In this document: piece by piece, positions 4,085 through 55,015 of the stretch
Layout of the letters: each line of letters opens with the position of its first letter
Numbering within the stretch: position 1 is the stretch's first letter
NCBI GenBank assembly: GCA_021786355.1
Contig: JAJYNK010000009.1
Coordinates: 517 to 64,516 of the forward strand
DNA length: 64,000 nt
Reading direction: 5' to 3'
From: a bacterium
GTDB taxonomy: Bacteria > Patescibacteriota > Minisyncoccia > UBA6257 > UBA9933
Program-made: the position numbers and the translations under genes
Notes under the pieces: generated by a model
The model's database searches: none
What the model was told of the DNA's origin: nothing
What the model saw: the letters and a program-made list of their open reading frames with translations, nothing else

Positions 4085-4738
4085 ATGAAGCAAGATAAAA
4101 AACAAAAAGCGCGGGAACTCCGAGCTTATGGTTACTCTCTGAACGAGATTGCGAAAAACTTAAACGTTTCAAAAAGCAGCGCGAGTATCTGGGTCCGCAA
4201 CGTCGCCCTAACCAAAGACCAGGAGAAAACGTTATCAAGGCGTACCGCGAAACTCTCTGTTGTGGAAAAAAGACGCGCAACTCGACTAGCTCGGAAAATC
4301 GCCTCACAAGAAAACCTCTTAAACCAATCGCAAAAGCAAATAAAGAAAGTGACCCAAAATGAGCTCCGGCTAATTGGCTCGGTATTGTATTGGACAGGGG
4401 GAGGAAAAACCCAAAAAGGCCTTGTCCGGTTCTCAAACAGCGATCCAGAGACGGTTAAGCTAATGATGGCTTTTTTTAGGAGCGTTTGCGAGGTTCCGGA
4501 ATACAAATTTCGGGGCCATATTTATACCCAACCCCACATAAACCCGCGAAACGCAGAAAAATACTGGTCGGAAATTTCCGGCATCCCCTTAAAGCAATTT
4601 TTCAAACCCTCGGTAAAAAAAGCTACTAAATCCAAAAAAGGGTGGCTTTCTTATGGATCTTTTGAAATCTATATCTGTAATGTTGAGCTATTCTTAAAAA
4701 TCCAGGGGTGGGTTAAGGGCATTTTTGCCTTTTTTTAG
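4085..4738 (+). CDS. HTH-domain protein. The N-terminal helix-turn-helix is LNEIAKNLNVSKSSASIW. The C-terminal half is loosely reminiscent of a degenerate LAGLIDADG-type nuclease fold.
   Basis: RAYGYSLNEIAKNLNVSKSSASIWVRN is an HTH-like segment. The C-terminal part (LIGSVLYWTGGGK..) has no confident family match. Confidence 0.35.
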   Translation: MKQDKKQKARELRAYGYSLNEIAKNLNVSKSSASIWVRNVALTKDQEKTLSRRTAKLSVVEKRRATRLARKIASQENLLNQSQKQIKKVTQNELRLIGSVLYWTGGGKTQKGLVRFSNSDPETVKLMMAFFRSVCEVPEYKFRGHIYTQPHINPRNAEKYWSEISGIPLKQFFKPSVKKATKSKKGWLSYGSFEIYICNVELFLKIQGWVKGIFAFF

Positions 4739-5004
4739 TTCGGCAATTGCCGAACTAACCAATTGGCAAGTTGCCGAACTTTTTTATTAAAACACTAGAA
4801 AATGTTTATCAAGTTTTGATAAACATTTTCTAGCCTAATTTTAGACTAATCTGTCGTAAAAGATTGTTTATCAAAACTTGATAAACATTTTTTATACTTT
4901 AGACCCCTGAAATTTGTTTTAAAGTGTTTGTTGTCTACACAAGCCAGACATTTTAATTCGGCAAAGCCACTGTTTTAATTCGGCAATGGTCATTGCCGAA
5001 TTAA
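4737..5004. repeat. Palindrome-dense convergent intergenic region
   Basis: P1 at 4737-4756 is a 20-bp perfect palindrome (AGTTCGGCAATTGCCGAACT) followed by a GGCAA-GT-TTGCC hairpin and a T-run that acts as a terminator. P2 at 4795-4833 is a 39-bp palindrome around TGTTTATCAA-GTT-TTGATAAACA. P3 at 4865-4887 is the inverted copy TGTTTATCAA-AAC-TTGATAAACA. P4 at 4975-5004 is TTAATTCGGCAATG-GT-CATTGCCGAATTAA. The four are arranged with overall dyad symmetry. Confidence 0.7.
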
Positions 5005-5030
5005 AAAACCTATAAATAACGGTGGTAGAA

Positions 5031-5534
5031 TTAATCCTTAAACTTGTTTAAAAACCGTTCCTCGTCATAAATTCCCCATTTATAAAGCCGGTACAACGAT
5101 TTGTGCCTATCGGAAACATCCGGATCGCTACCGATTTTTTCAAGCCAATTAACGAATTGAGTCCCTTTATATCCATGTAATTTCTTATAAAATAGAGGAA
5201 TTATTATGTCTTTTAATTGATCAAATTCTCGCACTATTAAAGTAGCCCTTCTTCCGCGTTTTACTCCATCTCCTTGCCATGATTTATGATTATAAATTTT
5301 ATTTCTCAGACCTAACTTTTCCTTAACTAATCTAATAAGTTTCTCGTCTCTTTCGTGCATTGCCAGCACAAATGCCGGTTGTTTTTGCTTTCTCCCATCA
5401 CTTTTTTTATATCCTGGAGTAAATGAGAAACATCCCTCTCCATCAATAAGCCCTCTTATATAATCAAAGGTTAATGGATTTGTTTCAAATTGTTTCGCGG
5501 CCAACATTGGCACCATATTTTTATATTGTATCAC
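5031..5534 (-). CDS. LAGLIDADG homing endonuclease (single-motif, homodimer type)
   Basis: YIRGLIDGEGCFSF is a canonical LAGLIDADG motif. At 167 aa it is free-standing. Confidence 0.8.
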   Translation of the reverse strand: MIQYKNMVPMLAAKQFETNPLTFDYIRGLIDGEGCFSFTPGYKKSDGRKQKQPAFVLAMHERDEKLIRLVKEKLGLRNKIYNHKSWQGDGVKRGRRATLIVREFDQLKDIIIPLFYKKLHGYKGTQFVNWLEKIGSDPDVSDRHKSLYRLYKWGIYDEERFLNKFKD

Positions 5535-5944: not shown

Positions 5945-5965
5945 CTGTATTTATAGGGTATTTAC

Positions 5966-6068
5966 CCCCACACCAAACGAGGATTAAATCAAATCCACAG
6001 CTTTGATAAAGCGAATTTATTCCGTCAACTGACGGAATAAATTAAAATATCCTCGTTTGGTGTGGGGG
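5966..6068. repeat. Hairpin repeat, family C copy 1. A 20-bp perfect inverted repeat (CCCCCACACCAAACGAGGAT / ATCCTCGTTTGGTGTGGGGG) encloses a nested 11-bp hairpin TTATTCCGTCA-AC-TGACGGAATAA.
   Basis: Read directly from the sequence. A second copy with a different but complementary inner stem lies at 39529-39666. Confidence 0.8.
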
Positions 6069-6134
6069 TTTACAAGATTTAAAAAATATGCTATTATTTA
6101 GTTAGATCGTAAAAAAATCTTTGAGGGGGTAAAA

Positions 6135-14239: not shown

Positions 14240-14263
14240 CGTTGTATAGTATACTATACAACG
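14240..14263. repeat. Palindrome CGTTGTATAGTATACTATACAACG, one of five copies of the TATAGTATACTATA-core palindrome
   Basis: Other copies at 16889-16912, 32445-32466, 43175-43200 (inside a CDS) and 54896-54923. Confidence 0.85.
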
Positions 14264-16612: not shown

Positions 16613-16618
16613 TCTTTG

Positions 16619-16738
16619 CCCCGTTAGAGAAAAGTCGCCGCGAGCGACTGAAGTCGTGCTCTTAGCACGGCGTTCTCTAATGGGGTTTGCCCCGTTAGAA
16701 GTAGGACGCGTACGATGCGTCCGCGACTTCTAACGGTG
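16619..16738. repeat. Two tandem hairpin repeats of family B: CCCCGTTAGAGA...TCTCTAATGGGG (16619-16685) and CCCCGTTAGAAGT...ACTTCTAACGGTG (16690-16738)
   Basis: Each arm pair is complementary apart from single G-T and C-T mismatches. The inner parts hold small hairpins. Confidence 0.75.
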
Positions 16739-16742
16739 TTTG

Positions 16743-16793: not shown

Positions 16794-17029
16794 ATTTATT
16801 ACAGTTTCATACGAATTATAAATACACACGGATTGGTGCGTATAAAAAAATAAAATAGTTTGCAAAATTAATTCGGAAATAAATTTTTAGTGGTATAGTA
16901 TACTATACCACTTAACCGTTTTATATCGCATATAAAAATTATTTATTGTAAGAATATTGATTATAGGAAAAATAATAAAAAACACCCCAGTAAATCGGAG
17001 TGTTTTTTTAAATCACTAAATAAATAAAT

Positions 17030-17853: not shown

Positions 17854-17994
17854 CCCAGTACTACAACTTCGATTATTTTTGTGTTAATTCTCGAGGTTGT
17901 GATTTATTGATTATTCTTATTTTTATTACCCAATATCAACTTAATTCAGGTTCTCAAAAATTTATAGAGAATGTATCGAAGTTGTAGTACTGGG
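17854..17994. repeat. 20-bp perfect inverted repeat CCCAGTACTACAACTTCGAT (17854-17873) / ATCGAAGTTGTAGTACTGGG (17975-17994) flanking a 101-bp AT-rich segment. The left arm abuts the ATG of pilin gene B.
   Basis: Arms verified base by base. The start codon of B (reverse complement of CAT 17851-17853) is immediately adjacent. Confidence 0.85.
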
Positions 17995-25956: not shown

Positions 25957-26970
25957 ATGCTTAATAAAGAAATACATCTCTCTTCTAAAATTTTTGAAAA
26001 TCATAACGAAAAGGCGCTTCGAGACGGATTCGGCGAAGGCTTAATGGAGCTCGGGGAAGAAAATAAAGACGTGGTTGTCTTGTGCGCGGATTTAAAAGAA
26101 TCAACACGTTGCCACTGGTTTGCCGATAAATTTCCCGAAAGATTTTTCGAAATCGGCGTCGCGGAACAAAACATGGCGACAATCGCCGCCGGACTGGGAG
26201 TAGCCGGAAAAATTCCTTTTATTTCTTCTTATGCGGTTTTTTCTCCTGGCAGAAATTGGGAGCAAATAAGAACTACAATCGCTTACAACGATTCGAACGT
26301 AAAAATTGCGGGACATCACGCCGGAATTTCAACCGGAGCTGACGGCGCAACCCACCAGGCAACCGAAGACATCGCCACAATGCGGGCGATGGCAAATATG
26401 AAAGTAATCGTTCCGTTTGACTATGAAGAGGCAAAAAAAGCGACTATAGCGGCTGCCAAAATCTGGGGCCCGGTTTATATAAGATTGGCGCGAGAGAAAA
26501 CTCCGGAAATAACAACAAGCAAAACCCGTTTTGTTCCGGGAAAATCCTATATCTTATGGGAATCAAACCCTTCGACGAGCTCAGGACGGAGAAAACCGCA
26601 GGCGGTAATTATCGGCGCCGGACCGTTGCTCTATAACGCGCTTTTGGCGGCAAAAGAACTGGAAAAAGAAAAAATCGGGGTGGTAGTTTTAAATTCTCAC
26701 ACCATAAAACCTCTTGATGAAAATAAAATCGTTGAATTGGCAAAAAAATATCGGGCAATCGTAACAGTTGAAGAACATACTATAATAGGAGGGCTGGGAT
26801 CGGCCGTAGCCGAAGTTTTGGCAAAACACGCGCCAACGGCAATGGAGTTTGTGGGCATACAAGATGTTTTTGGCCAAAGCGGAGAGCCAAAAGAATTGAT
26901 TAGCAAATATGGCATGGGAACAAAAGACATAGAAAATGCCGTTAAAAAGGTTTTAAAAAGAAAAAGATAA
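25957..26970 (+). CDS. Transketolase C-terminal subunit (pyrimidine-binding plus C-terminal domains); no N-terminal subunit gene adjacent
   Basis: FFEIGVAEQNMATIAAGL, GISTGADGATHQATEDIATMRAM and HTIKPLD motifs of transketolase C-terminal sections. Confidence 0.85.
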   Translation: MLNKEIHLSSKIFENHNEKALRDGFGEGLMELGEENKDVVVLCADLKESTRCHWFADKFPERFFEIGVAEQNMATIAAGLGVAGKIPFISSYAVFSPGRNWEQIRTTIAYNDSNVKIAGHHAGISTGADGATHQATEDIATMRAMANMKVIVPFDYEEAKKATIAAAKIWGPVYIRLAREKTPEITTSKTRFVPGKSYILWESNPSTSSGRRKPQAVIIGAGPLLYNALLAAKELEKEKIGVVVLNSHTIKPLDENKIVELAKKYRAIVTVEEHTIIGGLGSAVAEVLAKHAPTAMEFVGIQDVFGQSGEPKELISKYGMGTKDIENAVKKVLKRKR

Positions 26971-26990
26971 TCAAAACACTGGGGAGTTGA

Positions 26991-27298
26991 CCCCGCACCT
27001 TTTAAGCTCACAATCGTTTTTTGAAAATGTATTACATGTATATACTAAAAAGCAAGGTTAATGGTGAATTGTATATAGGAAGCACCGGTAACATCAAAAA
27101 ACGATTAGAAGAGCATAATTTGGGAAAGGAAAAAGCTACCAAAAGTTATAAACCTTGGAAAATCGTTTATCTAGAAGGCTATTTTTCTGAAAATGACGCC
27201 AGAACCAGAGAACACAATCTTAAACACTTCGGCAAGGTTTATTCCCAGCTGAAACGAAGAATTAAAAATAGCCTTCAAGAGTCTTAAAAGGTGCGGGG
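26991..27298. repeat. 16-bp perfect inverted repeat CCCCGCACCTTTTAAG (26991-27006) / CTTAAAAGGTGCGGGG (27283-27298) bracketing the GIY-YIG ORF
   Basis: Verified base by base. The right arm begins at the ORF's stop codon. Confidence 0.85.
27021..27287 (+). CDS. GIY-YIG nuclease domain protein (88 aa, homing-endonuclease-like)
   Basis: YMYILKSKVNGELYIGSTGNIKKRLEEHN matches GIY-YIG. Confidence 0.8.
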   Translation: MKMYYMYILKSKVNGELYIGSTGNIKKRLEEHNLGKEKATKSYKPWKIVYLEGYFSENDARTREHNLKHFGKVYSQLKRRIKNSLQES

Positions 27299-27346
27299 TT
27301 GATGATATAATAAAAGCGACAAAACGGGCGATCAGGAGAAAATAAT

Positions 27347-28387
27347 ATGTTCGACATAATCACCATAGGAACCGCGACTCAAGACGTTTTTTTGACCGGC
27401 AAACTTTTTAAAGTCATAAAAGATCCAAAACACTTGGAAAAAATCGGAATCTTAACCGGAGAAGCCGAGTGTTTTGCTTTGGGCTCGAAAATAGAAATAG
27501 AAAAACCGGTTTTTTCCATCGGCGGAGGAGCGGCAAACGCGGCCGTAACCTTTAGCCGACAAGGATTAAAAACAGCTTCTTTGATAAAGCTGGGGAAAGA
27601 CCCGGAAGCCGAATCTATTTTGAAAGAATTGAAAAGGGAAAAAGTTTTCCCGCTTCCTATTTATGACAAAAAGTTGAGCACTGCTTATTCAGTCGTGCTT
27701 CTTGCGCCGTCAGGAGAAAGAACCATTTTGGTTTACAGAGGCGCCTCAAAATATTTAAAAATAAGCGAAATTCCTTTTAATAAAATAAGATCCCGCTGGG
27801 CTTACATTTCTCCGGGAAACATTCCGTTTCCAACACTTCTAAAAATTTATTCACACCTGAAAAAACAAAATACGCTTATCGCCATAAATCCATCAAAACA
27901 TCTTATGGAAATGGGCATTAAAAAACTTGAGCCGATCTTATCGAAAAGCAAAGTTGTGATTTTAAACCGCGAAGAAGCGTCTTGTCTTACGAAAACTAAA
28001 TACCAGAACGAAAAAGAAATTTTCCGGCGACTGGACAAAGCCGTTTTAGGAATAGCGGTGATGACCGACGGACCAAAAGGAGTTATCGTTTCGGACGGAA
28101 GAAAAATATATCAAGCCGGAACTTTTAAAAACAAAAAAGTTGTCGACGAGACAGGAGCGGGCGATTCTTTCGGAAGCGGATTTGTTTGCGGGCTAATTCG
28201 CAAAAAAGAAAGATGCGATAAAAATAAATGCGTACCCGCCAACATCACTTACGCGATACGGCTCGCTACGGCAAACGCAATTTCAAATCTTGAAAAAATC
28301 GGGGCCACGGAAGGGCTGCTGACAAAAAACGACTTTGAAAAAAATCCAAGGTGGAAAACCTTAAAAATAAAGATTAATGATATTTGA
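27347..28387 (+). CDS. PfkB-family carbohydrate kinase (ribokinase-like)
   Basis: GGGAANAAVTF near the N-terminus and the DETGAGDSFGSGF anion-hole motif. Confidence 0.8.
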   Translation: MFDIITIGTATQDVFLTGKLFKVIKDPKHLEKIGILTGEAECFALGSKIEIEKPVFSIGGGAANAAVTFSRQGLKTASLIKLGKDPEAESILKELKREKVFPLPIYDKKLSTAYSVVLLAPSGERTILVYRGASKYLKISEIPFNKIRSRWAYISPGNIPFPTLLKIYSHLKKQNTLIAINPSKHLMEMGIKKLEPILSKSKVVILNREEASCLTKTKYQNEKEIFRRLDKAVLGIAVMTDGPKGVIVSDGRKIYQAGTFKNKKVVDETGAGDSFGSGFVCGLIRKKERCDKNKCVPANITYAIRLATANAISNLEKIGATEGLLTKNDFEKNPRWKTLKIKINDI

Positions 28388-28460
28388 ACTTCGCGCCTAA
28401 TTATTTTTCTTTTGCAATTTGGAATTTAACTTTTTTTAGTGTTAAATAGATAAACAATGA

Positions 28461-28580
28461 ATCCCGTTAGAAATAATGAACAATATGACTTTATGTTATC
28501 AAATACTTTAATTTATAAAAACGTCGATTATTTAGCATTATTTAACTTTGGCACATTTTTTGTGCAATTTCTAACGGGAT
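28461..28580. repeat. Hairpin repeat, family B copy (ATCCCGTTAGAAAT ... ATTTCTAACGGGAT). The right arm overlaps the ATG of the next gene. Inner hairpin GCACA-TTTTT-TGTGC.
   Basis: 14-bp perfect arms about 92 nt apart. A motif ATGAACAA(T/C)AT occurs after both arms. Confidence 0.8.
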
Positions 28581-29163
28581 GAACAACATAGAAAATTATC
28601 GAAAACCTAAAATCTGCGTTTCCGGAACCGCAGAATTAAGCGATTTCAGCGAAAATACTAATTTAATCGCCGAAAAATTAGGCGAGGAAATAGCCAAACA
28701 AGGCGCGATTTTGGTTGATGGAGCAACAACCGGTTTTCCGCAATGGGCGGCAAAAGGCGCAAAAAATGTCGGGGGCTTTGTAATCGGATTTTCGCCGGCG
28801 GACACGGAAAAAAACCACGTTGAATTATTCGGACTGCCGACCGATTACCACGATATGATAGTTTATACCGGCTTCCATTATTCAGGGCGGAATTTAATTC
28901 TTACTCGATCTTCCGATGCGGTTATTGTCGGTCCGGGAAGAATCGGCACAATCAACGAATTCACCATAGCTTTTGAAGACAACAAGCCTTTGGGAATTTT
29001 ACAAGGCGATTGGGACACGGACGAAACTTTTAAAATGCTTATTGAAAAATCTCACCGCGCCCAGGAAAGGAAAGGAAAAATATTTTTTGATTCTAATCCT
29101 AAATCGTTGGTTGAAAAAATAATCGAAGCTATCAATAAAGAGACTTTAAAATACGAAAAATGA
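28579..29163 (+). CDS. LOG/TIGR00725-like Rossmann-fold protein
   Basis: VDGATTGFPQWAAKGA and VGPGRIGTINEF resemble the GGGxGxMG and PGGxGTxxE motifs of the LOG family. Confidence 0.6.
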   Translation: MNNIENYRKPKICVSGTAELSDFSENTNLIAEKLGEEIAKQGAILVDGATTGFPQWAAKGAKNVGGFVIGFSPADTEKNHVELFGLPTDYHDMIVYTGFHYSGRNLILTRSSDAVIVGPGRIGTINEFTIAFEDNKPLGILQGDWDTDETFKMLIEKSHRAQERKGKIFFDSNPKSLVEKIIEAINKETLKYEK

Positions 29164-32374: not shown

Positions 32375-32497
32375 TGGGTTATTTTAGCATTTAAGATCGG
32401 CGCGCGAAAGCACTATTTTATAATTAATCAAAATTCTGCGCCGCGCACTATAGTATACTATAGTGCCATCAGCTAATCCAGGGTTGTCTTCGCTTAA

Positions 32498-39495: not shown

Positions 39496-39528
39496 CCCCG
39501 CTGTTTTTCCAGGCGGGGCGTTTTTTTA
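39496..39528 (+). terminator. Rho-independent terminator CCCCGC-(11-nt loop)-GCGGGG followed by CG and T7
   Basis: Directly after the stop at 39493-39495. Confidence 0.7.
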
Positions 39529-39666
39529 CCCCCACACCAAAGAAAGATCTAAATTTTTTCGAAGTCAAAAATATTTAAGAAATAACAGTAATTATTTAAC
39601 AAAACAATATAAAAAACCACTAACAAAGAAATTTAATCGCTTCGCAATCTTTCTTTGGTGAGGGGG
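39529..39666. repeat. Hairpin repeat, family C copy 2 (CCCCCACACCAAAGAAAGAT ... ATCTTTCTTTGGTGAGGGGG, one A-A mismatch) enclosing about 98 nt of AT-rich DNA
   Basis: Same CCCCCACACCAAA terminus as the copy at 5966. The inner stem differs but stays complementary. Confidence 0.8.
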
Positions 39667-39786
39667 TTTATTAACACCTTACGAACAAAATCTCTTGCTT
39701 TAAAACGCCGATTACTGATAATATGCCTTTAGAACACTGCTAATTTAAAATTCTGAGCTTATATAAAATTTGAGGAGGTGTTTGGG

Positions 39787-41773: not shown

Positions 41774-41967
41774 ACGCGGGCGACCATGATTTTCACTACT
41801 CGCGCGCGCCTCGCTAAGCTCGGCACGGCTGCGTTCTAAAACCCTGCGGTTTTAGTATTTCCGCAACGGGAAAACGAGTTTTCCCGACCCCTTTCTTGGC
41901 GGTTCAAATCCGCGATTCACATCAGAAAAATAAAACAACAGTTTCGACTGTTGTTTTATTTTTCTTG

Positions 41968-42041
41968 CGCGGGCGACCGGATTTGAACCGGCGACCTCTG
42001 CCGTGACAGGGCAGCGCTCTACCAGACTAAGCTACGCCCGC
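41968..42041 (-). tRNA. tRNA-Asp (anticodon GUC)
   Basis: Reverse complement folds as acceptor GCGGGCG/CGCCCGC, anticodon stem CTGCC/GGCAG with loop CTGTCAC, T arm GCCGG-TTCAAAT-CCGGT. The 5' end overlaps the last 15 nt of the LAGLIDADG ORF. Confidence 0.8.
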
Positions 42042-42695
42042 TTGCCGGTATATATTATATTTTCTCCTTAAATAAATCAACTTTTCTGGATTACGCTCGT
42101 ACATGAACATAAATAATTTTCCTGAGTCCCTAATAGAATAATTTAGATACCAAGAATTATCGCTTTTTTTAAAAAGTGATCCTGTAAGATTTATCGAATC
42201 CGATAAGGCCTTTTTTAACTCCTTGATAAAAACTTCGCTTCCTGAAGTAAACCGGCTAAGAAGTACTCGCGATTTGTTTTTTCGATCCGCTTTTTTAAAA
42301 AACCCGAATGAAACATTTCCGCCTCCATCAAAATAACCTCGCACAAAGTGGCAAAAATATTTACTTGGGACGCGTGGTAATTTTATTGTTTTGCTTTTTG
42401 CCGGAGTAAGACCTAATTTTATTAAGTCACAAAACATGGCCTTACTCCCTATTTGCAATCTATAAACGGTCTTGTGCTTTTTATCTCTTTGAATAATCGA
42501 AATTTTATGGTTTGATTCAAGAGTTTTTTGAATTTCTCTTAATAAATCCGCGTCTGTAATTTGAAACTCTATAAAATGCGCGCCTCTTTTGTTTTTAAGC
42601 ATATTCCCATCCGCCGTGAAAAACCCCAAAATATACGCCATTTCCGGAGTCCATTTTTTGAAAAAATTTTCGTTTTTTGTTTTATAAATCGGCAT
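42027..42695 (-). CDS. LAGLIDADG homing endonuclease (two-motif, monomeric type)
   Basis: Motifs AYILGFFTADGN and HFVRGYFDGGGNVSF. Confidence 0.8.
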   Translation of the reverse strand: MPIYKTKNENFFKKWTPEMAYILGFFTADGNMLKNKRGAHFIEFQITDADLLREIQKTLESNHKISIIQRDKKHKTVYRLQIGSKAMFCDLIKLGLTPAKSKTIKLPRVPSKYFCHFVRGYFDGGGNVSFGFFKKADRKNKSRVLLSRFTSGSEVFIKELKKALSDSINLTGSLFKKSDNSWYLNYSIRDSGKLFMFMYERNPEKLIYLRRKYNIYRQAGVA

Positions 42696-42729: not shown

Positions 42730-43563
42730 TTACTTCGGTTTTATAACTATAAATCTTTTCTTCCACCCTTTTTTAAATTCCTCTGTTGTGGCTTTTCTCT
42801 CAATAAGATTTGGATTGTTTATGTCGGGATCGGCGAATAAAACAATGTCGCCGTCTATCCCAAAAATAACCACCAAATGTCCGCCGTTTTGCGGATTTAG
42901 ATTCTTATATATGGAAGCTATGACCGGCCCGTTTTTTAACTCTTCAATCATTCGTTCAAAAGCGGTTTCCGTTTCTTCTTTCGCGAAATCAAATCTATTG
43001 CCCCTTAAACCAAAGTGTTTTACTGCGGCGTCTATTAATCCTTGATGCAGCCACCCTATGTTTTCTACATAAGCTTTGTTTTTGACCCCGTCGGAAATTA
43101 TAAAGTCAACTAAAAATTCGGAAAGTTTTTTCATCTTATCTTCGTCTACGTTTTTTGTCGGCCAAGCTCTTTCCAAGTGGTATAGTATACTATACCACTT
43201 GACTGAGTCGTGTTCGTCTAATAATTCGTTGAGTTTGTTTGTTTCGTTGCTTATCCAGTTTGCGTCATTTACGCTAGAAATAATCTTTGAATCTTTTAAA
43301 AGTTTTTTAATCGCTTTAACTACGTTTGGATCTTTTTTTGAAACACAATAAATCACAATCATCGCCAAAGAAGCGGGACCGCAGACTCTTTTTGCCCAAA
43401 ATTCGTTGCAGCCGTCGCCTTCGCAAAGCCCCTGTCCGTCCGGCAGGCGGGCATACCCGCTTTTGCCGATATCCAAATGCTGAGAAATGTTAACCGGAAG
43501 ATGGTGGCGAATTAAGAATTTTTTTTCCCGTCTTTTGTCCTGTTTTTTATTTATCGTATTCAT
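42730..43563 (-). CDS. Papain-like cysteine peptidase, C39-like family (Peptidase_C39_2-like)
   Basis: Cys box RVCGPASLAMIVIY and a C-terminal GGHLVVIFGIDGDIVLFADPD His/Asp region. The CDS contains a 26-bp perfect palindrome encoding KWYSILYHL. Confidence 0.5.
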   Translation of the reverse strand: MNTINKKQDKRREKKFLIRHHLPVNISQHLDIGKSGYARLPDGQGLCEGDGCNEFWAKRVCGPASLAMIVIYCVSKKDPNVVKAIKKLLKDSKIISSVNDANWISNETNKLNELLDEHDSVKWYSILYHLERAWPTKNVDEDKMKKLSEFLVDFIISDGVKNKAYVENIGWLHQGLIDAAVKHFGLRGNRFDFAKEETETAFERMIEELKNGPVIASIYKNLNPQNGGHLVVIFGIDGDIVLFADPDINNPNLIERKATTEEFKKGWKKRFIVIKPK

Positions 43564-53538: not shown

Positions 53539-53592
53539 ATTATGGCGCGGTTTGCTTAATTAGCAAAAGAATAAGTTATATATTTTTTTTGT

Positions 53593-53743
53593 CAATCCCG
53601 CACCTTTCGCGGATTGCGAAGCTATAAAATTCCAGAAACTAAAAAGATAAAAAGTCACCCACCTTTCTTAAAGAAAAACGGTTTGGATTTAGTTCGGCGG
53701 CTTCGAAAAGAATTTATATCCGCGAAAGGTGCGGGATCAATCG
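53593..53743. repeat. 19-bp perfect inverted repeat TCCCGCACCTTTCGCGGAT / ATCCGCGAAAGGTGCGGGA about 100 nt apart, spanning the ruvC 3' end
   Basis: The right arm encodes IDPAPFAD in the RuvC C-terminal tail. It shares the CCCGCACCTTT core with the GIY-YIG-flanking repeat. Confidence 0.75.
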
Positions 53744-54810: not shown

Positions 54811-55015
54811 GGTTGGTTGATTAGTTAATTGGTTAGCTGGCAAGAAGAGACAAGATAATAATAGAATAGAAACTAAGGAGATAAAAGTCAAAACCTAAGT
54901 TGTATAGTATACTATACAACTTAAACTTTCTTTTTTAGAGAATAATTTGTGTGTAAAAAACAGCCCGTTGGCGAAACGCCGCGGGGCTGGTGCAAAGAGC
55001 GAGAAAATCAGATGT

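What the first reader, a model, noticed from the sequence alone, without database searches (positions are those of the whole stretch)
26991..27298. GIY-YIG endonuclease ORF exactly bracketed by a 16-bp perfect inverted repeat, plus two LAGLIDADG genes: a dense load of selfish nucleases
The 88-aa GIY-YIG gene (27021-27287) sits between CCCCGCACCTTTTAAG and CTTAAAAGGTGCGGGG. Its stop codon is the first triplet of the right arm. This looks like a HEG dropped into the loop of a pre-existing hairpin (a terminator of the transketolase gene), or a hairpin-bounded mobile cassette. A related CCCGCACCTTT-core inverted repeat spans the ruvC 3' end (53593-53743). Together with the LAGLIDADG genes at 5031 and 42027, three free-standing homing-type nucleases in 64 kb is unusually many for a small genome.
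Basis: partly seen in the sequence, partly recalled or inferred. Interest (0 to 1): 0.55.

Follow-up and report, generated by a model that had tools for sequence, protein, structure and literature searches.

The report
Tiny hairpin-ended mobile nuclease gene cassette
The inverted repeat around this 86-residue GIY-YIG nuclease gene marks the ends of a roughly 308-bp mobile cassette that inserted recently at a TTGA site and duplicated it; it is related to the recently described Ssn single-strand nucleases and is the coding member of a set of tiny hairpin-ended insertions in candidate-phyla-radiation bacteria.

Summary
A 17-bp perfect inverted repeat (26990-27006 / 27283-27299) brackets a GIY-YIG ORF. 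It is not a local tkt terminator, because the arms travel with the gene. In 23 related elements from diverse Patescibacteria, the outer 13 bp (CCCCGCACCTTTT) are essentially invariant. The next 6 bp differ between elements but stay complementary, and pairing stops at position 20. Elements are 288-314 bp, sit in unrelated contexts, and are flanked by 4-bp direct repeats, mostly TTGA. Four filled/empty comparisons among close relatives show one copy of the 4-mer at the empty site and two at the filled site, including the window's own site inside the 3' end of tkt. The target consensus is TTGACA-like, and 9 of 11 TTGA insertions lie in a promoter-like −35 box. Two copies in this lineage have recombined, producing a rearrangement breakpoint at the element. 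The window holds at least six ORF-less hairpin elements with the same termini and duplication. The closest known system is the Ssn GIY-YIG ssDNA nuclease family with its flanking hairpin motifs (Chenal 2025). Here the gene lies inside one split hairpin, and insertion is directly documented. It remains untested whether the nuclease itself moves the element.

The parts
26987..26990 (+). Left copy of the 4-bp target-site duplication TTGA. Together with the first CC of the element it reads TTGACC, a -35-like hexamer.
   Evidence: Relatives L071-L073 have a single TTGA at this position. Direct repeats at the boundary occur in 16 of 20 elements, with the count peaking at offset 0,0. Promoter scan: TTGACC-16-CACAAT.
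26991..27009 (+). Left arm of the terminal stem. The family stem is 19 nt; in this copy 26991-27006 pair, plus A26990:T27299. CCCCGCACCTTTT is the invariant core.
27009..27014 (+). -10-like hexamer CACAAT just inside the left arm. It is the putative promoter of the nuclease gene, combined with the duplicated TTGA (inferred).
27027..27287 (+). GIY-YIG nuclease gene, 86 aa (an alternative TTG start at 27021 gives 88 aa). It is single-domain and Ssn/UPF0213/SLX1-like, and its stop codon lies inside the right arm.
   Evidence: Pfam E=3e-17. Invariant Y5, Y16, R26, H30, E62. AlphaFold pLDDT 91.9. Nearest folds are UPF0213 and SLX1. 35% identity to an SRM-flanked Ssn-type protein.
27280..27298 (+). 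Right arm of the terminal stem (27283-27298 pair in this copy). It ends in the core AAAAGGTGCGGGG.
27299..27302 (+). Right copy of the 4-bp target-site duplication TTGA.
27298..27345 (+). Remnant of the ancestral tkt 3' end (VDDIIKATKRAIRRK*), cut off from tkt by the insertion. It also carries the pfkB promoter (TG-extended TATAAT at 27306-27311).
   Evidence: All 7 codon differences from L071 are synonymous. Promoter scan.
26920..26979 (+). Replacement C-terminal tail of tkt (TKDIENAVKKVLKRKR*) plus 9 nt. It is absent from element-free relatives and its origin is unexplained.
53592..53740 (+). ORF-less hairpin element with the same core (TCCCGCACCTTT...; element 53596-53736), flanked by the duplication TCAA on the + strand (TTGA in the ruvC sense). 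It is inserted 5 codons before the ancestral ruvC stop.
   Evidence: empty site L079; a different family occupies the same site in L080.
5961..6072 (.). ORF-less hairpin element with CCCCCACACCAAA... arms and a TTTA duplication.
39525..39670 (.). Second ORF-less CCCCCACACCAAA... element with a TTTA duplication.
16615..16742 (.). Two adjacent small hairpin elements with CCCCGTTAGA... arms, each flanked by TTTG.
28458..28583 (.). ORF-less hairpin element with TCCCGTTAGAAAT... arms and a TGAA duplication. The 41-aa ORF called here lies inside it.
17854..17994 (.). Hairpin element with CCCAGTACTACAACTTCGAT arms (20-bp perfect inverted repeat), flanked by CAT. Membership in the group is probable but less certain.

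Best explanation
Positions 26991-27298 are a 308-bp mobile cassette. It consists of a terminal stem (13 bp of fixed sequence, CCCCGCACCTTTT, plus about 6 bp that only need to pair) enclosing a single gene for an 86-aa GIY-YIG nuclease of the Ssn type.

Shown by comparison of sequences:
- The cassette inserted recently at a TTGA inside the 3' end of tkt and duplicated those 4 bp.
- Sister copies sit at other TTGA/TCAA/TAAA sites in close relatives.
- Targets are TTGACA-like, so insertions land in promoter -35 boxes without destroying them.
- Copies recombine with each other and rearrange the chromosome.

Inferred, by analogy with SsnA:
- When the DNA is single-stranded, the two arms pair and loop out the gene. 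This recreates, at the stem base, the C-first G+C-rich hairpin with a short 5' flank (GTCAA here, GTCAT in the NTS) that Ssn nucleases bind.
- The encoded nuclease cuts next to the stem base and at G-rich TTGAC targets that resemble the element's own right junction (GCGGGG|TTGAC).
- A 4-nt staggered break is filled in to give the duplication.
- The duplicated TTGA together with a -10-like hexamer just inside the left arm drives the nuclease gene.

The ORF-less hairpin elements in the window are non-coding relatives that insert the same way.
For: - Arms travel with the gene. All 19 loci with 54-87% protein identity carry the same core, and more copies appear.
- Structure is under selection. Of 19 pairs, positions 1-13 are invariant; positions 14-19 show 3-5 Watson-Crick pair types each and are paired in 17-20 of 21 elements; position 20 is paired in 3 of 21. 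The tool count gives 97.3% paired versus 84% in shuffles and about 50% with slid partners, and 51 compensatory cells versus 13 (0 of 500 shuffles). Both DNA strands fold with the terminal stem, z about -6.
- Boundaries and duplication. At least 4 nt of direct repeat in 16 of 20 elements, peaking at offset 0,0.
- Empty versus filled sites: tkt|pfkB with TTGA; dsbA|Bac_transf with TCAA; downstream of Bac_transf with TAAA; the ruvC 3' end with TTGA for the ORF-less relative.
- Recency. All 7 of 7 codon differences in the orphaned tkt tail are synonymous, and copies within this clade are 84-90% identical.
- Contexts differ in all but one pair of loci.
- Target. G-rich, then TTGA, then CA. A -35/-10 arrangement is found in 9 of 11 loci versus 11% of control TTGA sites, p=1e-7.
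- Recombination between copies. The dsbA-pfkB element is a clean chimera, and homology to the window starts exactly at 26990.
- Link to Ssn. 35% identity (E=4e-13 pairwise) to an Azospirillum protein flanked on both sides by CGTCATCCCCGCGAAGGCGGGGATCCAG motifs. These motifs match the published SRM pattern and share the CCCCGC/GCGGGG stem core. Catalytic residues align with SsnA Y6/Y17/E64 (PMC11893778). SsnA still cuts when the hairpin is split into two strands or its loop is extended (PMC11893778).
- A more divergent homolog (52% identity) has different arms (CCCAAACAC...) but the same layout and a 4-bp duplication.
- The window has 8 inverted repeats with 4-nt flanking repeats versus 0.7 expected.
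Against: - There is no biochemical evidence here. Nuclease activity, ssDNA specificity and any role in mobility are all inferred.
- GIY-YIG enzymes are hydrolytic nucleases with no known strand-transfer activity, so integration would need host functions.
- Copy number is low (1-2 per genome), and positions are stable across many samples.
- The published SRM search pattern finds nothing in the window or in L001-L019. Assignment to CDD cd10448 could not be tested. PDB sequence and fold searches place the protein about equally near UPF0213 and SLX1.
- ORF-less families with different stems use the same target and duplication, so the insertion machinery may not be specific to this stem, or may not be this protein.
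- 4 of 20 elements lack a clean 4-nt repeat.
- A simple insertion does not explain the 60-nt replacement tkt tail to the left of the element.
Confidence: 0.7

Rival explanations
1. Cargo or passenger model. The hairpin-ended units, with or without the ORF, are non-autonomous MITE-like elements moved by an unlinked enzyme encoded elsewhere in the genome. The GIY-YIG gene is a passenger, or a domesticated Ssn-type nuclease with a host role such as cutting incoming ssDNA at these hairpins. It is not the agent of transposition.
For: ORF-less families with unrelated stem sequences share the same TTGA target, 4-bp duplication and YCCC...GGGR termini, and even hit the same sites. Copy number is low and positions are stable. 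SsnA in Neisseria has a host-level role in transformation (PMC11893778). GIY-YIG nucleases are not known to join DNA.
Against: The 13-bp core is invariant and always coupled to this one gene across many Patescibacteria lineages, and a divergent protein has divergent arms. That is the pattern expected for a cognate protein-site pair. No transposase gene was seen in any of about 80 loci next to these elements. Compensatory variation in the inner stem is not expected for the terminal repeats of a DDE-type transposon.
Confidence: 0.2
2. Classical free-standing homing endonuclease gene. The nuclease cuts the empty dsDNA allele, and the gene is copied in by recombinational repair. The inverted repeat is incidental or regulatory.
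For: It belongs to the GIY-YIG superfamily, which includes I-TevI-type enzymes (weak NCBIfam and PDB matches). There is one copy per site. The flank replacement to the left of the element and the chimeric copies resemble co-conversion tracts.
Against: 4-bp target duplications at four sites. Insertion sites are unrelated genes that share only TTGA(CA). The protein is the bare catalytic domain with no DNA-binding domain. The terminal stem is conserved and covaries. ORF-less relatives insert identically.
Confidence: 0.07
3. RNA-level role of the stem. The arms pair in read-through transcripts and form an RNase III site (as in rRNA intervening sequences or Neisseria Correia elements), or a translational or stability element. 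This would insulate host operons from the insert, and it, rather than DNA recognition, would be why pairing is conserved.
For: Covariation cannot distinguish DNA pairing from RNA pairing. GIY-YIG ORFs occur in non-intron insertions of CPR rRNA genes, where RNA excision would be needed (PMC11270868). An IVP-type ORF cassette bracketed by inverted repeats sits at the same tkt|pfkB junction in L073.
Against: The predicted promoter of the nuclease gene lies at or inside the left arm, so its own mRNA would lack that arm (inference). Wobble-type exceptions are balanced between the strands (7 versus 5). The outer 13 bp are fixed in sequence, not only in pairing. None of 20 loci lies in an rRNA gene. 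SsnA does not act on RNA (PMC11893778). This role could coexist with the main explanation.
Confidence: 0.12
4. One reading: the gene dropped into the loop of a pre-existing intrinsic terminator of tkt.
For: The arms are G+C-rich and lie downstream of the present tkt stop codon.
Against: Element-free relatives have no hairpin there, and the site is inside the tkt ORF. No terminator-like site was detected. The arm order is the C-rich half followed by T-run first, i.e. circularly permuted relative to a terminator. The same arms flank the gene at more than 20 unrelated loci.
Confidence: 0.02

Closest known systems
Ssn family of GIY-YIG site-specific ssDNA nucleases with NTS/SRM hairpin repeats (SsnA of Neisseria meningitidis; Chenal et al. 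2025, Nat Commun, PMC11893778)
   Same: Both are small single-domain GIY-YIG proteins (86 versus 94 aa) with the catalytic Tyr/Tyr/Glu at matching positions. In both, the gene is bracketed by its presumed recognition sequence. Both use a C-first G+C-rich stem with core YCCCGC...GCGGGR and a short oriented 5' flank containing GTCA. The authors showed cleavage still occurs when the hairpin is split or its loop is extended, and they noted that NTS-ssnA-NTS looks like an insertion sequence.
   Different: Here there is one hairpin split around the gene (a 19-bp stem with a roughly 270-nt loop), not complete 20-50-nt hairpins on each side. The published SRM pattern does not match. Copy number is 1-2 with a handful of ORF-less relatives, rather than hundreds of repeats. 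Insertion with a 4-bp duplication, a TTGACA-like target and empty sites are documented here and are not reported for Ssn. Protein identity to an SRM-flanked member is only 35%. Patescibacteria are not mentioned in that paper.
IS200/IS605 insertion sequences and REP/RAYT (REPtron) systems
   Same: Both are very small elements whose ends form hairpins recognised in single-stranded DNA. Both insert next to a specific tetranucleotide. In REPtrons the nuclease gene is bracketed by inverted palindromic repeats that also occur without a gene.
   Different: Those elements use Y1 HUH transposases with covalent intermediates, have subterminal hairpins rather than one terminal inverted repeat, and make no target duplication. 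This element has perfect terminal inverted repeats, a 4-bp duplication and a GIY-YIG protein.
Bacterial MITEs, especially Neisseria Correia elements (from general knowledge, not tested here)
   Same: Both are roughly 100-150-bp terminal-inverted-repeat elements with short target duplications that insert near genes and can supply or preserve promoter boxes. The ORF-less units in this window fit that description.
   Different: MITEs are by definition non-coding and depend on a DDE transposase of a related insertion sequence. Here the only coding relative carries a GIY-YIG nuclease, and the inner stem covaries.
rRNA intervening sequences with small ORFs in CPR and other bacteria (Tsurumaki et al. 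2024, J Bacteriol, PMC11270868)
   Same: Both are stem-bounded cassettes carrying a small ORF. GIY-YIG and 23S_rRNA_IVP ORFs are reported in non-intron insertions, and an IVP-type cassette occupies the same tkt|pfkB junction in relative L073.
   Different: The elements studied here lie between or in the ends of protein-coding genes, not in rRNA. That paper does not describe inverted repeats or duplications for the GIY-YIG insertions.
UPF0213 (BH0048/YhbQ-type) proteins and the SLX1 nuclease domain
   Same: These are the nearest solved structures by sequence and by fold (1zg2; 6seh with TM 0.68, rmsd 1.9 A, 38% identity). SLX1 is a structure-specific nuclease acting at branched DNA.
   Different: UPF0213 proteins have no known function or flanking repeats. 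SLX1 needs SLX4 and has an extra RING domain.

Membership tests
GIY-YIG nuclease superfamily | GIY-YIG catalytic domain with conserved Tyr (GIY), Tyr (YIG), Arg, His/Asn and metal-binding Glu, in a beta-beta-alpha-beta-alpha fold | tested here: met
   Pfam PF01541 E=3e-17. Y5, Y16, R26, H30 and E62 are invariant in 14- and 48-sequence alignments. AlphaFold pLDDT 91.9 with the expected element order. Foldseek hits to UPF0213, SLX1 and I-TevI.
Ssn family (Chenal 2025) | Single-domain protein of about 90-100 aa with no extra DNA-binding domain | tested here: met
   86 aa, with one Pfam domain covering residues 3-68. The model is a single compact domain.
Ssn family (Chenal 2025) | Assignment to CDD cd10448 (GIY-YIG_unchar_3) or to the SsnA clade | not testable with these tools
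   No CDD and no SsnA sequence were available. Indirect evidence: 35% identity, 45.8 bits, to an Azospirillum protein that is flanked by canonical SRMs, versus 27.8 bits to UPF0213 BH0048.
Ssn family (Chenal 2025) | Gene flanked on the 5' and 3' sides by SRM hairpins matching HGTCWYN(0-2)YYVSBRHN(0-5)WNVSBRGN(0-2)RNCYNB | tested here: not met
   0 matches in the window and in L001-L019, while the pattern does find 4 copies around the Azospirillum gene. What is present instead is one split stem sharing the YCCCGC/GCGGGR core and a GTCAA flank.
Ssn family (Chenal 2025) | Site-specific cleavage of ssDNA only, a few nt 5' of the hairpin | not testable with these tools
   This needs biochemistry.
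Insertion sequence / autonomous DNA transposon | Defined ends (terminal inverted repeats) and a target-site duplication verified against empty sites | tested here: met
Insertion sequence / autonomous DNA transposon | Several copies at different sites within a lineage | tested here: met
   Three sites among close relatives with copies 84-90% identical, and a chimera proving two copies coexisted. No genome with many identical copies was found.
Insertion sequence / autonomous DNA transposon | Encodes a transposase of a known class (DDE, HUH, serine or tyrosine recombinase) | tested here: not met
   The only ORF is GIY-YIG.
IS200/IS605 | Y1 HUH TnpA, subterminal hairpins, no terminal inverted repeats and no target duplication | tested here: not met
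   GIY-YIG protein, terminal inverted repeat and 4-bp duplication.
Homing endonuclease gene (free-standing) | Insertion at one long conserved recognition site, without target duplication, spread by gene conversion | tested here: not met
   More than 17 unrelated sites sharing only TTGA(CA), and duplications at four verified sites.
Intrinsic terminator of tkt | Short G+C-rich hairpin followed by a T-run, present at the locus independently of the ORF | tested here: not met
   No terminator-like site. Relatives lacking the ORF have no hairpin.
MITE (for the ORF-less units at 5965, 16619, 16690, 28462, 39529, 53596) | Short non-coding element with terminal inverted repeats and a target duplication, present or absent at orthologous sites | tested here: met
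   (8 observed versus 0.7 expected). The ruvC site is empty, filled, or filled by another family in different relatives. The dsbA site is occupied by another family in L070.

The most novel reading that the evidence does not exclude
The 86-aa GIY-YIG protein is itself the mobilising enzyme. That would make this roughly 300-bp unit the smallest autonomous transposable element known in cells and the founder of a new prokaryotic transposon class: hairpin-guided, GIY-YIG-driven, with a 4-bp duplication, targeting promoter -35 boxes. The ORF-less hairpin families would be its MITEs. It would also mean the widespread Ssn/SRM systems descend from, or still are, transposons.
Probability: 0.35. Interest if true: 0.9.

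Novelty: new variant of a known kind. Interest (0 to 1): 0.72.

Why it matters
The Ssn paper left open whether the 'hairpin-gene-hairpin' unit is a mobile element, and that question now becomes directly testable. This clade offers a minimal, sharply bounded unit: 308 bp, one 86-aa protein, a 13-bp fixed recognition core and a 6-bp pairing-only segment. It has verified insertion footprints, a defined target (TTGACA-like), natural empty sites, and ORF-less partners to use as substrates.

If the nuclease drives mobility, this would add a new enzyme chemistry to prokaryotic transposition and a very small programmable ssDNA-hairpin nuclease/target pair. Even if it does not, the elements explain rearrangement breakpoints, altered gene ends (tkt, ruvC) and promoter-proximal insertions in the otherwise streamlined genomes of candidate-phyla-radiation bacteria. 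They also cause assembly breaks in metagenomes.

Tried and rejected
- Terminator reading: the consensus scan finds no terminator-like site in 26800-27500, and relatives lack any hairpin there.
- Rfam: only 5 tRNAs in the window, and nothing at the element. No rRNA in 20 related loci, so these copies are not rRNA intervening sequences.
- Published SRM pattern: no hits in the window or L001-L019.
- Further GIY-YIG copies in the window: none (tblastn).
- Multi-copy test through identical proteins on many contigs (P0011, P0049, and the window's 83-aa product): each has one context only.
- ORF-less element 53596-53736 as a deletion derivative of the gene-bearing one: the interiors show no similarity beyond shuffles.
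- Strand-asymmetric wobble pairs as a sign of RNA pairing: the counts are balanced.
- NCBIfam: only sub-threshold hits to group I intron endonuclease and UvrC.
- Plasmid collection: a single hit, but it turned out to be a canonical Ssn locus.
- Whole-element MAFFT alignment for covariation: gaps broke the register of the inner stem, so an ungapped arm-only alignment was used instead.
- Literature: nothing found on GIY-YIG transposons in bacteria, on Ssn follow-ups, or on MITEs in CPR.
- Not attempted: structure comparison with an Ssn structure (none is in the PDB), and CDD assignment.
Full report
**1. The observation.**
The window carries ACCCCGCACCTTTTAAG at 26990-27006 and its exact reverse complement at 27283-27299. 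That is 17 nt, one more than reported, with 276 nt between the arms. The enclosed ORF (27021-27287) is a GIY-YIG domain protein (Pfam PF01541, E=3e-17). Homologs are 84-86 aa, so ATG 27027 is the likely start. The stop codon TAA (27285-27287) lies inside the right arm but is not its first triplet. The neighbours are the transketolase C-terminal subunit (25957-26970) and a PfkB kinase (27347-28387). The second CCCGCACCTTT repeat (53595-53614 / 53718-53737, 20 nt perfect) and both LAGLIDADG ORFs are also real. There is only one GIY-YIG copy in the window. The window is 100% identical to a Logan contig from run SRR13189623 and belongs to a Patescibacteria (CPR) organism.

**2. The arms belong to the gene, not to the locus.**
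A scan of one genome per species returned 29 loci encoding relatives. In all 19 loci with 54-87% protein identity, the ORF is bracketed by the same inverted repeat. These come from Wolfe-, Giovannoni-, Buchanan-, Uhr- and Moranbacteria and other Patescibacteria. More distant non-CPR homologs (50% identity or less) lack the repeat. Further copies found later (L030, L068, L069) follow the same rule.

Read from the ends inward, positions 1-13 (CCCCGCACCTTTT) are essentially invariant. Positions 14-19 vary, with 3-5 different Watson-Crick pair types per position, yet remain paired in 17-20 of 21 elements. From position 20 on, pairing drops to 3-6 of 21.

On an ungapped arm alignment of 23 elements, 97.3% of cells are paired. 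The comparison values are 84.0% in column shuffles and about 50% when partners are slid. Eight of 19 pairs show changes on both sides, and 51 cells are compensatory against 13.1 expected, with 0 of 500 shuffles reaching this. Folded as single-stranded DNA, either strand closes the whole element with this stem in both the minimum-energy and the centroid structures (z = -6.1 and -6.5).

So the outer half of the stem is conserved as sequence and the inner half as structure. In the window's own copy only 16 of the 19 positions pair, plus an A:T contributed by the flanks.

**3. It is an insertion with a 4-bp target duplication.**
Taking the element as CCCCGCACC...GGTGCGGGG (288-314 bp), 16 of 20 copies have an identical stretch of at least 4 nt directly outside both ends. 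These are TTGA 11 times, then ATTGA, TTTTGA, TCAA, TAAAA, AAAAA, and TTAT twice. The count peaks sharply at the chosen boundaries. Flanking genes are unrelated in all loci except one orthologous pair.

Four filled/empty comparisons among close relatives settle the matter:

| Site | Empty | Filled |
|---|---|---|
| tkt / pfkB (the window's own site) | L071-L073 (tkt 88-91%, PfkB 82-88% identical): tkt runs into pfkB with a single ...GGGG TTGA TGATATAATAAAAGC... | Window: ...GGGGAG TTGA [element] TTGA TGATATAATAAAAGCG... |
| dsbA / Bac_transf | L069: ...GCTG TCAA CCCCTTATGAAT... | L068: ...GTG TCAA [element] TCAA CCCCTTAT... ; L070 carries a different, ORF-less hairpin element at the same TCAA |
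| Downstream of Bac_transf | L068: ...CAAA TAAA ATGC... | L069: ...AA TAAA [element] TAAA ATG |
| ruvC 3' end | L079: ...AACAA TTGA CAAAAAG... | Window: TTGA [ORF-less CCCGCACC element, 141 bp] TTGA CAAAAAAAA ; L080: TTGA [TCCCGTTAGAAAT-family element] TTGA at the same position |

At the ruvC site, removing the element and one TTGA restores a 165-aa RuvC ending IDKKNI. Element-free homologs (P0176, P0177) end IDKKNK.

The three gene-bearing copies in this small clade are 84-90% identical to each other.

**4. The insertion in the window is recent and hit a coding sequence.**
The target TTGA lies 15 codons before the ancestral tkt stop. The 48 nt to the right of the element (27298-27345) still read VDDIIKATKRAIRRK*. 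They differ from relative L071 at 7 codons, all synonymously. So this stretch was translated for most of the time since the two lineages split.

The present tkt instead ends with a different but homologous tail, TKDIENAVKKVLKRKR*. It is encoded by about 60 nt (26920-26979) that relatives lack. I cannot explain this piece. It may be donor flank brought in by recombination within the element, as documented in section 6.

**5. Target choice and promoters.**
The reconstructed target consensus is G-rich, then TTGA, then CA. That is a TTGACA-like hexamer, and it resembles the element's own right junction GCGGGG|TTGAC. In 9 of 11 TTGA-type loci the right-hand TTGA begins a -35-like hexamer with a good -10 hexamer 16-18 nt downstream, against 11% of other TTGA occurrences in the same loci (binomial p = 1e-7).

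The duplication therefore leaves the host promoter intact on the right. On the left it creates TTGACC, followed 16-18 nt later, just inside the left arm, by a -10-like hexamer. In the window this is TTGACC-16-CACAAT, a few nt upstream of ATG 27027. That this hybrid promoter drives the nuclease gene is an inference. TTGA outnumbers its complement TCAA 13 to 2 relative to the ORF, so the orientation is not random.

**6. Copies recombine.**
The window's exact PfkB protein occurs on contigs with two different left contexts: tkt, as in the window, or trxB-grx-dsbA. Homology to the window begins exactly at 26990. The element in the second context is a clean chimera. Its left flank and first 50 nt or so match the dsbA/Bac_transf copy (L068), and everything from 27078 or earlier onward matches the window copy. 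The left flank there is TCAA and the right flank is TTGA, as expected for a recombinant. Several unitig-type contigs end at 27081 or start at 27270, which is consistent with the element behaving as a repeat in those samples.

**7. A population of ORF-less relatives.**
The window contains 8 inverted repeats (arm at least 12 nt, spacer 20-450 nt) with identical 4-mers on both sides. The expectation is 0.7, with a maximum of 4 in 30 shuffles. Seven of them have YCCC...GGGR termini:
- 5965-6068 and 39529-39666 (CCCCCACACCAAA, TTTA)
- 16619-16685 and 16690-16738 (CCCCGTTAGA, TTTG)
- 28462-28579 (TCCCGTTAGAAAT, TGAA)
- 53596-53736 (TCCCGCACCTTT, TCAA)
- the gene-bearing element itself

A 52%-identical GIY-YIG homolog (L040) has the same layout (299 bp, 21-bp stem, CCAA duplication) but arms reading CCCAAACACTAAG..., which resemble the CCCCCACACC family. 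So proteins and arms appear to diverge together. The interior of the ORF-less 53596 element shows no remnant of the ORF.

**8. What it is related to.**
The protein has the invariant GIY-YIG catalytic set (Y5, Y16, R26, H30, E62) and a confident single-domain model (pLDDT 91.9). Its nearest solved relatives are UPF0213 BH0048 and the SLX1 nuclease domain.

The literature search found the Ssn family (Chenal et al. 2025, PMC11893778). These are 94-aa single-domain GIY-YIG proteins (catalytic Y6, Y17, E64) that bind a hairpin repeat (NTS/SRM, CGTCATTCCCGCGMAVGCGGGAATCYRG) only in single-stranded DNA and cut a few nt 5' of it. Their genes are typically flanked by such hairpins. They still cut when the hairpin is assembled from two strands or carries a loop extension. 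The authors remark that NTS-ssnA-NTS looks like an insertion sequence but show no transposition.

A plasmid search with the window protein found one hit, an Azospirillum gene between sufB and sufC (35% identity, E = 4e-13 pairwise). Pairs of CGTCATCCCCGCGAAGGCGGGGATCCAG flank it on both sides, which makes it a textbook Ssn locus by the paper's own search pattern. Its stem core CCCCGC/GCGGGG is the core of the window's arms. The window's right end read on the minus strand (CATCAA-CCCCGCA) resembles CGTCAT-CCCCGCG.

The published SRM pattern itself finds nothing in the window or in L001-L019, and CDD membership could not be tested. I therefore describe the element as working like an Ssn/hairpin pair and as a probable divergent member. 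Its new architecture is the gene sitting inside a single split hairpin.

**9. Mechanism, with shown and inferred steps kept apart.**
Shown by comparative sequence:
- discrete ends;
- a stem under selection for both sequence and pairing;
- insertion with a 4-bp duplication at TTGA-type targets;
- overlap of those targets with promoter-like -35 boxes;
- recency of the window's insertion;
- recombination between copies;
- ORF-less relatives that insert identically.

Inferred:
- in single-stranded DNA the arms pair and present the stem base with its flank to the encoded nuclease;
- the nuclease cuts beside the stem and at look-alike G-rich TTGAC targets;
- a 4-nt staggered break is repaired to give the duplication;
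- the duplicated TTGA supplies the gene's -35 box.

The main uncertainty is whether this hydrolytic nuclease is the agent of mobility at all. Families with different stems share the same target and duplication. That could mean recognition only of the YCCC/GGGR stem base, several cognate nucleases, or a different unlinked enzyme. An RNA-level role of the stem, such as RNase III processing of read-through transcripts, is not excluded and could coexist with the DNA-level role.

**10. Verdict.**
Its 'terminator' reading is refuted and its 'hairpin-bounded mobile cassette' reading is upheld and considerably extended. Searches of the held library found no prior description of this architecture, of target duplications for Ssn-type genes, or of such hairpin elements in CPR bacteria. 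I rate it a new variant of a known kind (Ssn/hairpin systems), with a substantial chance (about 0.35) of being a new class of transposon.

Noticed in passing
window 14244-14259, 16893-16908, 32448-32463, 43180-43195, 54902-54917: A 16-nt palindrome GTATAGTATACTATAC occurs at five sites. That gives 18 strand-matches to GTATAGTATAC with at most 1 mismatch, against 0.23 expected. It could be an operator or a bidirectional -10 region.
   Followed up: partly
window 26920-26979: The present tkt ends with a homologous but different C-terminal tail (TKDIENAVKKVLKRKR*), encoded by about 60 nt that element-free relatives lack. The original tail survives intact to the right of the element. The origin of the replacement piece is unexplained.
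   Followed up: partly
L073 (Ga0265292_1000051) about 2040-2500; L072 about 2425-2500: At the same tkt|pfkB junction, one relative carries a roughly 470-nt cassette with a 23S_rRNA_IVP-like ORF bracketed by TAGTAGTTAG-type inverted repeats. Another carries an 80-nt inverted repeat, TTAGCCACTAG...CTAGTGGCTAA. The junction is a hot spot for small cassettes bounded by inverted repeats.
   Followed up: no
window 53655-53736 (ruvC, minus strand): The last 27 codons of the annotated RuvC ORF are encoded by the ORF-less hairpin element. Homologs P0175 (92%) and P0178 (81%) share this tail, P0181 has a tail from a different element family, and P0180 has an in-frame 29-aa insert before the native IDKKNK end.
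   Followed up: yes
window 42027-42695 (-) and 41967-42041 (-): The LAGLIDADG_3 ORF overlaps the 5' end of tRNA-Asp by 15 nt. Whether it is free-standing or part of an insertion next to the tRNA was not examined.
   Followed up: no
window 4799-4825 / 4865-4891: The longest perfect inverted repeat in the window (27 nt, spacer 39), plus smaller palindromes at 4735-4758 and 4973-5006, lie just downstream of the LAGLIDADG_1 ORF 5031-5534(-).
   Followed up: no
window 28457-28582: The 41-aa ORF called here in several public assemblies lies entirely inside an ORF-less hairpin element (28462-28579, TGAA duplication) and has no Pfam match. It is probably not a gene.
   Followed up: partly
L051/L068, between the dsbA start codon and ATGATAAG: About 250 bp of nested CCCCGTAGTAG-type hairpin elements, flanked by CATA, are absent from relative L069. 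A dsbA gene also lies next to the GIY-YIG element in L012 and L016.
   Followed up: partly
L007 3825-3860; L012 about 2905-2947; L011 3328-3398: There are partial or degenerate extra copies of element ends near full elements: a solo left end with 35 nt of 5' sequence in L007, a 3'-end fragment directly upstream of the L012 element, and a 71-bp ORF-less CCCCGCACC hairpin 70 nt downstream of the L011 element.
   Followed up: no
window 27012-27024 / 27094-27106 and 27170-27186 / 27264-27280: Two internal long-range inverted repeats lie inside the element (13 nt perfect, and 17 nt at 94%). The first covers the region just upstream of the start codon. Conservation in other copies was not tested.
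   Followed up: no
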